Assembly: GCA_050251495.1 (NCBI GenBank)
Contig: JBFWMQ010000007.1
Span: 8,214 to 72,213, forward strand
Direction: 5' to 3'
Source: Desulfovibrio sp.
GTDB taxonomy: Bacteria; Desulfobacterota; Desulfovibrionia; Desulfovibrionales; Desulfovibrionaceae
DNA length: 64,000 nt
Positions 24,224 through 55,440 of the stretch are shown here, one piece after another. Position 1 is the first letter of the stretch. Each line of letters begins with the position of its first letter. A program made the position numbers and the translations under genes. The notes beneath the pieces are model-generated. The model worked only from the letters and a program-made list of their open reading frames with translations, was not told the origin of the DNA and did not search any database.

Positions 24224-24505
24224 ATGAGCCCGGCAAACGGCAGCGACGAATTCCCCTCCCTCGGCCCGGCGACCGGCCAGGGCGAGGGGGTGCGCATCTA
24301 CGGCAAGGAAGGCTGCCCGCACACCAAGCGGGCCAGGGCCGCGTTGCCGCGCGCGCTTTTCGTGGACGTGCTGGCCGACCCGGCCGCGCTGGAGGAGATG
24401 CTCCGGCTCTCCGGCGGGGTGCGGCGCATCCCGGTCATCGTCCAGAGTGACGGGCACGGCGACGCCGTTCAGATCGGCTTCCAGCGCGGGGCCTGACACA
24501 TCTGA
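24224..24505 (+). CDS. Glutaredoxin-like UXX-star-type (seleno)protein; TGA at 24494-24496 probably Sec
   Basis: YGKEGCPHT and LSGGVRRIPVIV thioredoxin-fold motifs; ends GFQRGA-TGA-CAC-ATC-TGA, i.e. U-H-I-stop. The ORF track stops at 24496. Confidence 0.7.
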
Positions 24506-24532
24506 ACGCCGGGCCGTGCGCCTGCGCACCAG

Positions 24533-24569
24533 GAAAAAGAGCCGACGGGTCACCCCGCCGGCTCTTTTC
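24533..24569. terminator. Bidirectional intrinsic terminator
   Basis: GAAAAAGAGCCG...CGGCTCTTTTC between convergent genes. Confidence 0.7.
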
Positions 24570-53992: not shown

Positions 53993-54080
53993 GGGCGCCT
54001 CCGAGGGGGCCTTCCGCCGGTTGTCGGCTGGAAGGGTGTCGGTGGTACATCCCCGCGCTTCCGGGGAAGCGGAGGATGCA

Positions 54081-54155
54081 GCCCAGGCGAGCGGCAGGAA
54101 AGGGGTGTTCGCGCTCCCTCGTGGTAAGCTCCACGCTTGTTCGCCAGTCACGCGG
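54081..54155 (-). ncRNA. ZMP/ZTP riboswitch (pfl RNA)
   Basis: Minus strand CGCGTGACTGGCGAACAAGCGTGGAGCTTACCACGAGGGAGCGCG-linker-GCCGCTCGCCTGGGC. All hallmark elements are present: GACUGGCG, P2 GUGG/CCAC, GGAGC closing P1, and 3' GCCG..CGCCUGGGC forming the pseudoknot with GGCG. Confidence 0.93.
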
Positions 54156-54197
54156 CCCCGGTATGGGAAAGCCTTTACCCCCGGCGCGGGCCAGGCG

Positions 54198-54416
54198 TCA
54201 AGACGGCTTTGGCCGCCTGAGCAGTACGCTGTCCACAACCCGGCGGACATCGGAAAGGCATCAACGCCCGCTTGGGTTCATCTGCGCGCACTGGCAGCCG
54301 CCCGTCCGCTTCGCGGCCAAAATGGCCTCAAGAATCAGTGAGCGGCCATGCTCCCGCGCGTCCCGCTCTATGTCGGCCCTGGTGTGGCCGAAGCAGTGAC
54401 AGATCATCTCGCCCAT
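54198..54416 (-). CDS. 72-aa Cys-rich BFD-like / CopZ-N-terminal-like putative [2Fe-2S] selenoprotein (TGA at 54261-54263)
   Basis: MGEMICHCFGHTRADIERDAREHGRSLILEAILAAKRTGGCQCAQMNPSGR-U-CLSDVRRVVDSVLLRRPKPS; GGAGGGG RBS; not in the ORF track. Confidence 0.8.
54230..54249 (-). promoter_or_regulatory. Bacterial SECIS-like hairpin
   Basis: TGTCCGC-CGGGTT-GTGGACA (7-bp stem, G-containing loop) starting exactly 11 nt after the in-frame TGA. Confidence 0.7.
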
Positions 54417-54427
54417 GCGCCCCTCCG

Positions 54428-54478
54428 GGAAAGAAAGACGCCCGGCCCTTTCCGCGTGTGGATGGAAGGGGCCGGGCG
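54428..54478 (-). terminator. Intrinsic terminator after the class IV aminotransferase
   Basis: CGCCCGGCCCCTTCC...GGAAAGGGCCGGGCG hairpin followed by TCTTTCTTT on the minus strand. Confidence 0.7.
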
Positions 54479-54501
54479 CGCGTTGTCTCGTTGCGGCGCG
54501 G

Positions 54502-55440
54502 TTAGAATACCAAGCCGTTTTGCTGCAGATCCGCCTGGAGCAGGGCGCGGACCTTGCGCGTCACCGGGCCGGGCCGGGCGTCGAAGATGGGCTTGCCGCC
54601 ATAGCGCACGATGCCGATGGCGTCGAAGCTGGTGCCGATCATCATCACCTCGCGCGCGGCAAAGACCTCTTCCTCGGTCACGCCCTTGAAGATCACGGAC
54701 ATCTCCCCCTTCAGCAAGTCCACGGCGCGCATGAGGGTGGTGCCCGCCAGCGAGTTGGTGAACTCCGGAATCACCAGCCTGCCCGCCTCGTCCACCAGGG
54801 CCACGTTCTCCGTGGCGCCCTCGGCCAGAAAGCCGTTGCCGTCGAAGCAGAGGGGGAAGTCCACGCGGTTGTTCACGGCCTCGCGCTTCATCAGCACGTT
54901 GGGCAGGTAGTTGGTGGTCTTGACCGTGGCCATCCAGGCCTGCTTGGCCGGAATGCTCGTGCGCATGGCCGTGGCGCCCTTCTCGAACGCGCTCTCCGGC
55001 CGCTTGTGCATGCGGTAGGCCACCACGTACATGCTCGGCACCGGGCTCTCGTAGGGGTCCAGGCCGAACCCGCCGGGGCCGCGGCCAAGCAGCACGCGGA
55101 TCAGCCCGTCGGGCTCGTTGCCCGCCCGCGCCACCTCGATGATGGCCTCCGCAAGCTCGTTCCAGGAGCACGGCGGCTCCAGGTGGATGGCCTGGCAGGA
55201 GACCTTCATGCGCCGGATGTGGGCGTCCAGCTGGTACAGCTTGCGGCCCTCGTACTTGACGGACTCGAACACGCCGTCGCCCCGGTGCACCAGATGGTCG
55301 TCCCAGGGCATGAGCATGAGCTTCGGGTCGGTGCCGATGACCCCGACGCGGTGATCGTAAAAGGCCAGCACTTCCTCGCTGCCGGGCCGTATGGCCTCAA
55401 GCAGAGCCTCCAGGTATTCCTGCGAACCGGCGACGCGCAT
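54502..55440 (-). CDS. PLP-dependent aminotransferase class IV (D-amino-acid transaminase / IlvE / PabC family)
   Basis: HRGDGVFES, VKTTNYLPNVL (PLP lysine), EGATEN and LAGTT; the subfamily cannot be resolved from motifs. Confidence 0.9.
   Translation of the reverse strand: MRVAGSQEYLEALLEAIRPGSEEVLAFYDHRVGVIGTDPKLMLMPWDDHLVHRGDGVFESVKYEGRKLYQLDAHIRRMKVSCQAIHLEPPCSWNELAEAIIEVARAGNEPDGLIRVLLGRGPGGFGLDPYESPVPSMYVVAYRMHKRPESAFEKGATAMRTSIPAKQAWMATVKTTNYLPNVLMKREAVNNRVDFPLCFDGNGFLAEGATENVALVDEAGRLVIPEFTNSLAGTTLMRAVDLLKGEMSVIFKGVTEEEVFAAREVMMIGTSFDAIGIVRYGGKPIFDARPGPVTRKVRALLQADLQQNGLVF

What the first reader, a model, noticed from the sequence alone, without database searches (positions are those of the whole stretch)
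54198..54426. Hidden 72-aa selenoprotein gene (CxC...CxC...NPSGR-U-C) with a well-placed SECIS
Seen: RBS, ATG 54416, in-frame TGA at codon 52 and 20 more sensible codons; a 7-bp hairpin with a G-rich loop starts 11 nt after the TGA. Known: NPxGxCC is the Fe-S-binding motif of the Archaeoglobus CopZ N-terminal / BFD-like domain, and 11 nt is the E. coli fdhF SECIS spacing. Inference: Sec replaces a cluster- or metal-ligating Cys in a stand-alone metallochaperone or redox protein. The gene starts right after an intrinsic terminator, so it may be expressed by read-through from metF-asd-aminotransferase.
Basis: partly seen in the sequence, partly recalled or inferred. Interest (0 to 1): 0.65.

Follow-up and report, generated by a model that had tools for sequence, protein, structure and literature searches.

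The report
Small iron-sulfur selenoprotein gene, annotated truncated
This is a real 72-codon gene for a tiny iron-sulfur-type protein whose in-frame TGA is almost certainly read as selenocysteine; gene callers cut it at 51 residues, but the protein family is already listed in published selenoprotein catalogues, so this is a correct call and an annotation fix, not a new kind of system.

Summary
On the minus strand an RBS and ATG (54416) open a frame with TGA at codon 52 (54263-54261). It then runs through Cys53 and 19 more codons to a stop at 54200-54198, and a 7-bp hairpin starts 11 nt after the TGA.

The selenoprotein reading is supported:
- The genome has selA, selB, tRNA-Sec and selD.
- All 28 strong matches among 201 genomes sampled from the same family, and 45 of 49 matches among 401 sampled from the phylum, keep the same in-frame TGA followed by Cys.
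- Cys-containing relatives have an invariant NPxGxCC-LGDV. The TGA lies on the first Cys, which aligns with Cys118 of A. fulgidus CopZ (2HU9).
- Sequence after the TGA evolves like coding sequence.
- The hairpin is paired in 94% of cells across 28 distinct sequences and is absent from distant Cys forms.
- The genome's own selD and fdhA use hairpins of similar geometry.

The predicted fold (pLDDT 88) resembles Bfd-type [2Fe-2S] ferredoxins.

The family is not new. [quoted passage not shown] The second residue of the pair is always Cys, so Sec is probably the reactive neighbour of the cluster ligand and not the ligand itself (inference). Function and expression route are untested.

The parts
54198..54416 (-). 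Full selenoprotein CDS: 72 codons plus the stop. Sequence MGEMICHCFGHTRADIERDAREHGRSLILEAILAAKRTGGCQCAQMNPSGR-U-CLSDVRRVVDSVLLRRPKPS.
   Evidence: Translation. Gene callers stop at 54261, giving 51 aa. NF047645 CopZ_Nterm_CC E 2.4e-13. AF2 model pLDDT 88.3.
54420..54426 (-). Shine-Dalgarno GGAGGGG, 5 nt between the GGAGG core and the ATG.
   Evidence: Read directly from the sequence. Conserved in close relatives.
54261..54263 (-). UGA codon 52, read as selenocysteine.
   Evidence: It aligns with the first Cys of the invariant CC pair in Cys homologues and with Cys118 of 2HU9. The same TGA is in 28 of 28 strong family matches and 45 of 49 phylum matches.
54258..54260 (-). Cys53 codon (TGC). Invariant, and probably the fourth [2Fe-2S] ligand.
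   Evidence: Invariant in 30 of 30 distinct Sec-form genes. Cys at this position in 149 of 150 cluster representatives, with one unparsed. The ligand role is inferred.
54230..54249 (-). SECIS hairpin: a 7-bp stem with apical loop CGGGUU, starting 11 nt after the UGA. It overlaps codons 56-63 (D-V-R-R-V-V-D-S).
   Evidence: Fold. 94.4% of cells paired across 28 sequences, with 3 double changes. Absent from distant Cys forms, 1-3 of 7 pairs. Geometry similar to this genome's selD and fdhA SECIS.
54438..54479 (-). Strong hairpin directly upstream of the RBS, likely the terminator of the metF-asd-aminotransferase unit.
   Evidence: 15 bp, z -3.7. Not called by the strict consensus scan. Conserved in close relatives.
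54427..54437 (-). U-rich tail UCUUUCUUUCC after the upstream hairpin.

Best explanation
The locus encodes a 72-residue stand-alone selenoprotein. It consists of the [2Fe-2S]-binding, Bfd-like C-terminal subdomain of the CopZ N-terminal domain family.

Recoding (inferred from the parts present). Ribosomes reaching UGA52 are recoded by SelB carrying Sec-tRNA(Sec). SelB is recruited by the hairpin that starts 11 nt downstream and shows a G-G-U-rich apical loop. Translation then continues through Cys53 and a C-terminal helix (residues 54-66).

Protein (inferred). It most likely binds a [2Fe-2S] cluster through Cys6, Cys8, Cys43 and Cys53. Sec52 sits beside the last ligand as a highly nucleophilic, redox-active or soft-metal-binding residue. 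The protein would then act as a small electron-transfer or metal(loid)-handling protein, comparable to the redox-active N-terminal domain of A. fulgidus CopZ.

Shown here: the gene anatomy, the Sec/Cys correspondence, coding conservation after the UGA, SECIS conservation, the Sec machinery, and the fold and family assignment. Not shown: actual Sec insertion, cluster binding, which residue of the U-C pair binds iron, and the physiological role. [quoted passage not shown]
For: Sec machinery in the same genome:
- selB 388.9 bits and selA 595.1 bits, both over cut-off.
- tRNA-Sec 86.2 bits.
- selD fragment at a contig end, itself carrying an in-frame TGA.

Conservation of the TGA:
- Eight database homologues are all called at exactly 51 aa. 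Their DNA shows TGA-TG[CT] and then an open, conserved frame.
- 28 of 28 strong matches in 201 genomes of the same family carry exactly one TGA, as do 45 of 49 matches in 401 genomes of the phylum.

Sec/Cys pairing:
- Among 150 cluster representatives there are 85 CC, 61 TGA-type (55 truncated at the motif, 6 read as W) and 3 RC. One 'W' form was confirmed to be a TGA.
- 2HU9 aligns NPSGRCC to NPSGR-U-C.

Coding signal after the UGA:
- Codon-position entropy is 0.67/0.73/1.10, against 0.66/0.66/1.35 before it.
- The frame is open for at least 16 codons in 30 of 30 sequences, while the other two frames hit stops within 13 codons in 10 and 3 sequences.
- C53 and V57 are invariant.

SECIS:
- The helix is 94.4% paired against 34-63% in slid controls, with 3 pairs showing double changes.
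- L046 changes two residues (R to H, D to N) yet keeps the pairing.
- Distant Cys forms have 1-3 of 7 pairs.
- selD and fdhA of this genome have hairpins 12-16 nt after their UGA with GG-containing loops.

Family and fold:
- NF047645 E 2.4e-13 and Pfam Fer2_BFD E 0.002.
- AF2 pLDDT 88.3 with a confident helix after the Sec.
- The top three PDB fold matches are Bfd.

Catalogue entry with motif GxUC.
Against: - There is no direct evidence of Sec insertion or of transcription.
- The window hairpin alone is not more stable than shuffles (z -0.98).
- Much of the helix conservation is confounded with conservation of the encoded V-R-R/Q-V-V/A-D. Only three double changes were seen, and one Cys form (P0012) keeps a perfect helix.
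- Scores against all curated family models are below their cut-offs, because the protein is only one subdomain.
- Foldseek E-values are not significant (about 1).
- Which of U52 and C53 binds iron rests on inference. The 2HU9 paper could not be read.
- No conserved gene neighbourhood supports any particular function.
Confidence: 0.9

Rival explanations
1. The UGA is an ordinary stop. The product would be a 51-residue Bfd-like peptide, and the downstream hairpin and conservation would serve something else, such as mRNA stability, a leader for the ZTP riboswitch and BenE unit, or a SelB-independent regulatory element.
For: All public gene calls end at 51 aa, and NCBI names one 'bacterioferritin-associated ferredoxin'. 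The hairpin is not exceptional against shuffles. A riboswitch lies only about 37 nt past the extended ORF.
Against: A 51-aa product would lack the invariant Cys53 and the C-terminal helix that every Cys homologue has. The post-UGA frame shows coding periodicity and is open in 30 of 30 sequences. The TGA and hairpin are kept in loci without any riboswitch or BenE neighbour. The Cys-for-TGA correspondence holds across 150 representatives.
Confidence: 0.04
2. The UGA is read through, but not as Sec. Near-cognate Trp, Cys or Arg insertion would give a 72-residue non-seleno protein.
For: Three representatives have Arg and many have Cys at this position, so the fold tolerates other residues. Sec insertion was not measured.
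Against: The complete Sec machinery is present. A SECIS-type hairpin sits at the canonical spacing and resembles those of selD and fdhA in the same genome. Keeping TGA strictly in dozens of genera, instead of drifting to TGC or TGG, argues for selection on Sec itself.
Confidence: 0.03
3. A functional variant of the main explanation: Sec52 itself, not Cys53, is the fourth ligand of the [2Fe-2S] cluster, giving a naturally selenolate-ligated iron-sulfur cluster.
For: The catalogue also holds a 'form 2' with CU (NF045877). If cluster geometry is conserved between the two forms, Sec occupies the ligand position in at least one of them. U52 aligns with a conserved Cys of the CC pair in 2HU9.
Against: The second position is Cys in 149 of 150 representatives, while the first varies (C, U, R). 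In Bfd the last ligand directly precedes the C-terminal helix, as C53 does here, with the helix starting at residue 54. All of this is inference.
Confidence: 0.2

Closest known systems
[quoted passage not shown]
   Same: It has the same domain assignment (CopZ-like Fer2_BFD-like) and the same Sec motif, G-R-U-C, with Sec at the first position of the CC pair. It is a bacterial SECIS-dependent UGA recoding case. This gene is a member.
   Different: Nothing material. The catalogue gives only a name, a motif and one accession, which I could not fetch to compare length. No experimental work on the family was found. Here the gene is annotated as truncated at 51 aa.
Archaeoglobus fulgidus CopZ N-terminal domain (PDB 2HU9; NCBIfam NF047645 CopZ_Nterm_CC)
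   Same: The CxC…C…NPSGRCC ligand pattern is shared. The heptapeptide NPSGR-[C/U]-C matches at every residue, and the HMM match is E 2.4e-13 to positions 86-137 of 138.
   Different: The window protein lacks the N-terminal Zn subdomain and the C-terminal Cu-binding CopZ domain, has Sec in place of Cys118, and has an extra conserved Cys41. Its score of 50.5 bits is below the family cut-off of 100.
Csac_0668 family 2Fe-2S cluster-binding (seleno)protein (NF045877, 'form 2', motif CU)
   Same: It is a related CopZ-N-terminal-type domain in which one Cys of the same CC pair is Sec.
   Different: Sec is at the second position (CU, not UC). It is a 161-position two-subdomain protein, and the match is only 17.9 bits against a cut-off of 190.
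Bacterioferritin-associated ferredoxin Bfd (Pfam PF04324; PDB 4E6K, 6E6R)
   Same: Both are small helical [2Fe-2S] domains starting with CxC. Bfd gives the top three structural matches, TM 0.52-0.66. NCBI names a truncated homologue this way.
   Different: Bfd uses C-x2-C for ligands 3 and 4, has no Sec and has no NPxGxCC loop. The Pfam score of 18.8 is below the gathering score of 26. No bacterioferritin link is seen here.

Membership tests
Bacterial selenoprotein gene (SelB/SECIS-dependent UGA recoding) | In-frame UGA that aligns with Cys in homologues | tested here: met
   U52 aligns with the first Cys of an invariant CC pair. Tally: 85 CC against 61 TGA-type among 150 representatives. It also aligns with Cys118 of 2HU9.
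Bacterial selenoprotein gene (SelB/SECIS-dependent UGA recoding) | Conserved coding sequence downstream of the UGA | tested here: met
   Third-position entropy is 1.10 against 0.67 and 0.73. The frame is open for at least 16 codons in 30 of 30 sequences, C53 and V57 are invariant, and the residues match those of Cys homologues.
Bacterial selenoprotein gene (SelB/SECIS-dependent UGA recoding) | Stem-loop immediately 3' of the UGA with G in the apical loop, at about the fdhF spacing | tested here: met
   The hairpin starts 11-12 nt after the UGA, with loop CGGGUU or AGGU. It is 94.4% paired in 28 sequences and absent in distant Cys forms. selD and fdhA of this genome have similar hairpins.
Bacterial selenoprotein gene (SelB/SECIS-dependent UGA recoding) | selA, selB, selC and selD present in the genome | tested here: met
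   selD is cut off by a contig end, but its N-terminal 101 positions match at 105.6 bits with its own TGA.
Bacterial selenoprotein gene (SelB/SECIS-dependent UGA recoding) | Selenium actually incorporated at the UGA | not testable with these tools
   Needs 75Se labelling or mass spectrometry.
CopZ-family (2Fe-2S)-binding selenoprotein form 1 (cd10141, GxUC) | GxUC motif | tested here: met
   G50-R51-U52-C53. The motif is as listed in PMC13188914.
CopZ-family (2Fe-2S)-binding selenoprotein form 1 (cd10141, GxUC) | CopZ-like Fer2_BFD-like domain | tested here: met
   CDD itself was not available. The equivalent NCBIfam model NF047645 matches at E 2.4e-13 over the [2Fe-2S] subdomain, 2HU9 aligns at E 0.047 with the identical NPSGRCC, and the top fold matches are Bfd.
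NF047645 CopZ_Nterm_CC (equivalog) | Full two-subdomain protein scoring at or above 100 bits | tested here: not met
   50.5 bits, matching model positions 86-137 of 138 only. The Zn subdomain is absent, so this is a relative and not a member of this equivalog.
NF045877 Csac_0668 CU-type (seleno)protein | CU dipeptide and a score at or above 190 bits | tested here: not met
   The motif is UC, not CU, and the score is 17.9 bits.
Bfd, Pfam PF04324 Fer2_BFD | Score at or above the gathering threshold, with CxC…CxxC ligands | tested here: not met
   18.8 bits against a threshold of 26. Ligands 3 and 4 are C43 and C53 or U52, separated by 8-9 residues, not C-x2-C.
[2Fe-2S] protein | Binds a [2Fe-2S] cluster | not testable with these tools
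   Inferred only from homology to 2HU9 and Bfd.

The most novel reading that the evidence does not exclude
Sec52 sits within bonding distance of, or directly ligates, the [2Fe-2S] cluster. This very widespread mini-protein (about 11% of sampled genomes of the phylum, and 41% of the family's cluster representatives are TGA forms) would then be a selenium-dependent, cluster-gated redox or soft-metal(loid) carrier. That function has not been demonstrated for any selenoprotein, and the family has been invisible in annotation because it is cut at 51 residues. Its position here, between a one-carbon/amino-acid operon and a ZTP-riboswitch-controlled transporter, could also mean co-transcription with the riboswitch unit.
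Probability: 0.15. Interest if true: 0.6.

Novelty: already known. Interest (0 to 1): 0.22.

Why it matters
The practical value is as an annotation fix. This gene and dozens of orthologues in sulfate-reducing bacteria are deposited as 51-residue 'hypothetical' or 'bacterioferritin-associated ferredoxin' proteins. Those records lack the last cluster ligand and a whole helix.

The family is common. It is present in 46 of 401 genomes sampled from the phylum, nearly always in the Sec form. As far as I could find it has no experimental characterisation, so it remains an accessible target for asking what a selenol next to a [2Fe-2S] cluster does.

It does not add a new kind of system. The selenoprotein family and its GxUC motif are already in published catalogues.

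Tried and rejected
I used the genome search at family and phylum level instead.
- The consensus promoter and terminator scan found nothing in 54000-54700. Direct folding showed the upstream hairpin.
- The A. fulgidus CopZ structure paper (PMC2859431) and Haft & Tolstoy 2025 (PMC12013261) are not held. The identity of the fourth cluster ligand therefore could not be taken from the literature.
- The primary reference the reviews cite for the family (Zhang & Gladyshev 2008, PMC2398784) does not mention it in its main text, and neither does Peng 2016. Prior knowledge therefore rests on the two review tables.
- The neighbourhood analysis found no conserved partner genes across genera. My ORF picking there was crude in this high-GC DNA.
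- A first attempt to extract the selD and fdhA SECIS treated every TGA as open and gave noise. I redid it with the known frames.
- Pseudogene and chance-ORF readings were rejected because the TGA is conserved across dozens of genera.

Full report
**Observation**

On the minus strand the sequence reads GGAGGGG-GCGC-ATG (ATG at 54416). The frame is MGEMICHCFGHTRADIERDAREHGRSLILEAILAAKRTGGCQCAQMNPSGR, then TGA at 54263-54261. After it come TGC (Cys) and 19 further sense codons (LSDVRRVVDSVLLRRPKPS) before a TGA at 54200-54198. Mechanical ORF listing stops at the first TGA and gives 51 aa.

Folding the 71 nt after the TGA gives a 7-bp helix (UGUCCGC/GUGGACA, loop CGGGUU) beginning 11 nt after the UGA. 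On its own it is not more stable than shuffled sequence (z -0.98).

Upstream, a 15-bp hairpin at 54479-54438 is followed by UCUUUCUUUCC and lies between the aminotransferase stop (54504-54502) and the RBS. Folding the 89-nt stretch gives -46 kcal/mol, z -3.7. The strict consensus scan does not call it a terminator.

**Is the UGA a Sec codon?**

I ran the standard criteria.

1. Machinery. The same genome has selB (388.9 bits) and selA (595.1 bits), both above the curated cut-offs. It also has a tRNA-Sec at 86.2 bits and the N-terminal part of selD at a contig end, itself with an in-frame TGA.

2. Conservation of the TGA.
   - A search of 5.8 billion proteins found eight homologues, all called at exactly 51 aa.
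   - Their DNA shows TGA-TG[CT] at the same codon in every case, followed by an open frame reading U-C-[LA]-[SA]-x-V-R-[RQ]-V-[VA]-[DG].
   - Whole-genome six-frame searches gave 28 strong matches in 201 genomes of the same family, every one with exactly one TGA.
   - In 401 genomes sampled across the phylum there were 49 matches, 45 with a TGA. The four without lie in much longer ORFs.

3. Sec/Cys pairs.
   - An exhaustive HMMER search of 1.84 billion representatives gave 952 hits.
   - Among the best 150, 85 have CC at positions 52-53 within an invariant NP-x-G-x-CC-L-G-D-V context.
   - 55 end exactly at the motif.
   - Six have 'WC'. One of these was checked and translates only with TGA=W.
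   - Three have RC.
   - The solved A. fulgidus CopZ N-terminal domain (2HU9) aligns VCYC…C…NPSGRCC to ICHC…C…NPSGR-U-C. This puts U52 on Cys118 and C53 on Cys119.

4. Coding signal after the UGA. Across 30 distinct Sec-type genes, column entropy by codon position is 0.67/0.73/1.10 after the UGA and 0.66/0.66/1.35 before it. The frame stays open for at least 16 codons in all 30, while the other two frames hit stops within 13 codons in 10 and 3 sequences. Cys53 and Val57 are invariant.

5. SECIS.
   - The helix occupies the same ungapped columns (16-22 with 27-33, counted from the T of the TGA) in 28 distinct sequences.
   - 94.4% of cells are paired, against 34-63% when the 3' partners are slid by 1-3 columns. 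Three pairs show double changes.
   - In L046 the helix reads GUUCACC…GUGAAC, which changes two amino acids (R58H, D62N) while keeping the pairing.
   - Distant Cys-form genes have 1-3 of the 7 pairs, and one has 5. They also do not keep V-R-R/Q-V-V/A-D, which suggests that part of this peptide's conservation is imposed by the RNA.
   - The closest Cys form (P0012, TGT at the Sec position) keeps 7 of 7 pairs. I read this as a recent Sec-to-Cys switch, though it also shows that the helix is not a perfect discriminator.
   - As an internal control, selD and fdhA of this genome each have their UGA followed by a hairpin starting 12-16 nt downstream with a GG-containing apical loop.
   - The 11-nt spacing and the importance of loop G/U come from the E. 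coli fdhF SECIS literature. That part is my own knowledge and was not checked here.

**What the protein is**

- Pfam gives Fer2_BFD at 18.8 bits, below the gathering score of 26.
- NCBIfam gives NF047645 'CopZ_Nterm_CC, putative iron-sulfur cluster-binding metallochaperone' at E 2.4e-13. The match covers only model positions 86-137 of 138 and scores 50.5 bits against a cut-off of 100.
- NF045877 'Csac_0668 family 2Fe-2S cluster-binding (seleno)protein' (CU type) matches at only 17.9 bits.
- Longer Cys homologues (about 160 aa, with an N-terminal CxxC subdomain) pass the NF047645 cut-off. Short Cys homologues score like the window protein.

The window protein is therefore the stand-alone [2Fe-2S] subdomain of this superfamily. 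An AlphaFold2 model built from an 11-sequence alignment is confident (pLDDT 88.3, pTM 0.75). It places a helix at residues 54-66, directly after U52-C53. The three best PDB fold matches are P. aeruginosa Bfd (TM 0.52-0.66). The E-values are about 1, as expected for chains of around 60 residues.

**How it probably works**

A 51-residue product would lack Cys53 and the C-terminal helix that all Cys homologues have, so read-through is needed for a complete domain. Conserved thiol/selenol positions are C6, C8, C41 (about 90%), C43, U52 and C53. C41 is absent from 2HU9 and from several Sec forms. The likely ligand set is therefore C6, C8 and C43, plus one of U52 and C53.

The second position of the pair is Cys in 149 of 150 representatives, with one unparsed. 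The first position varies among C, U and occasionally R. In Bfd-type folds the last ligand directly precedes the C-terminal helix, as C53 does here.

From this I infer that C53 is the ligand and Sec52 is its reactive neighbour, either a redox-active or a soft-metal-binding selenol next to the cluster. This is an inference. The 2HU9 paper was not available, and the existence of a CU-type 'form 2' keeps the Sec-as-ligand alternative open. I put that at about 0.2.

**Context and expression**

In the window and its closest relatives the order is metF, asd, class IV aminotransferase, hairpin, this gene, ZMP/ZTP riboswitch (54161-54074, 61 bits), then a BenE-family transporter. In other genera the neighbours differ completely. 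One lineage has the gene overlapping the stop of an HU gene, and clustering of flanking ORFs across about 30 loci found no recurrent partner.

Context therefore gives no functional clue.

**Comparison with what is known**

[quoted passage not shown] The 2026 review gives the Sec motif as GxUC. Both give the example WP_245779778.1 and list a 'form 2' with CU, which is the Csac_0668 family (PMC9312934; PMC13188914). The window protein has G-R-U-C in the same domain type, so it belongs to form 1.

The reference both reviews cite (the GOS paper, PMC2398784) does not discuss the family in its main text, and I found no experimental study. Eight earlier follow-ups in this scan, on homologues in other genomes, reached the same verdict. 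I had already reached mine. I treat those notes as agreement, not as independent evidence.

**Verdict**

This is very probably (about 0.9) a genuine Sec-containing 72-residue iron-sulfur-type protein. It is a member of an already catalogued selenoprotein family that annotation pipelines systematically truncate. Interest is low to moderate. The remaining open questions are biochemical: what the selenol next to the cluster does, and whether it binds iron or a metal(loid).

Noticed in passing
window 54074-54161 (-), with the downstream ORF 52766 to about 53992 (-): A ZMP/ZTP riboswitch (RF01750, 61 bits, full-length match) starts about 37 nt after the selenoprotein stop. It precedes a BenE-family transporter gene (408 aa in relatives).
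   Followed up: partly
own genome G000:C53:2765-3061 (L030): selD lies at a contig end and only its first 101 model positions are assembled. It carries its own in-frame TGA (…GVRAAG-U-AAKV…) with a SECIS hairpin at +16, so SelD is itself a selenoprotein here.
   Followed up: partly
own genome G000:C11:16735-19803 (L073): The formate dehydrogenase alpha subunit (1493 bits) has one in-frame TGA (…HQARI-U-HSATV…) and a downstream hairpin with a GGC apical loop. I used it as a SECIS control.
   Followed up: partly
L068:512-721 and L069:70-279 (P0012): This is the closest Cys-form homologue, with TGT at the Sec position and 57% identity. It still has a perfect 7-of-7 SECIS-type helix, which looks like a recent Sec-to-Cys conversion with a relic SECIS.
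   Followed up: partly
P0023, P0047, P0066 (deep-search representatives): Three homologues have Arg at the Sec position (…GR-R-C…, …GK-R-C…) while keeping the Sec-type V-R-R/Q-V-V-D/N signature. This could be TGA-to-CGA/AGA substitution.
   Followed up: no
L049, L051, L057 (same genus as the window; G046, G137, G162): These same-genus genomes carry a more divergent copy, about 50% identical and in a different neighbourhood. It lacks Cys41 (…SQC…), often has G-C-U-C, and ends in an acidic, Cys-rich tail (…DPLDPCC, …DDSCDACG…PCD, …DDCSDCEANGPCC), possibly an extra metal site.
   Followed up: no
L067 (G553:C22:9300-10100): A second copy in one genome has two in-frame TGAs and a garbled middle section (…GVR-U-SWKRLRPRKRP…). 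It looks like a frameshifted or decaying paralogue that still keeps the TGA-Cys and the hairpin.
   Followed up: no
L036 (G034:C69:1268-1474): Here the motif is G-G-U-C. The frame after the Sec runs for 264 codons with no stop into a protein with SEC-C-type CPCGSGKK…CCG motifs (YchJ-like). It is either a fusion or simply an in-frame neighbouring gene.
   Followed up: no
L014:532-750 (P0010): This metagenomic relative has a deletion that removes the NPSGR-U-C region and the hairpin, so the frame runs on into the downstream sequence. It is either a degenerate copy or an assembly error.
   Followed up: no
window 54201-54218 (-): A second small hairpin (GGCGGCC-AAAG-GCCGUCU) ends right at the true stop codon. 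It is conserved only in the closest relatives (L010, L015, L017), has no U-tail, and its purpose is unknown.
   Followed up: no
window 24224-24533: An earlier first-reader note (e1-5247892) flags a glutaredoxin-like gene ending U-x-x-stop as another possible selenoprotein in this window. I did not examine it.
   Followed up: no
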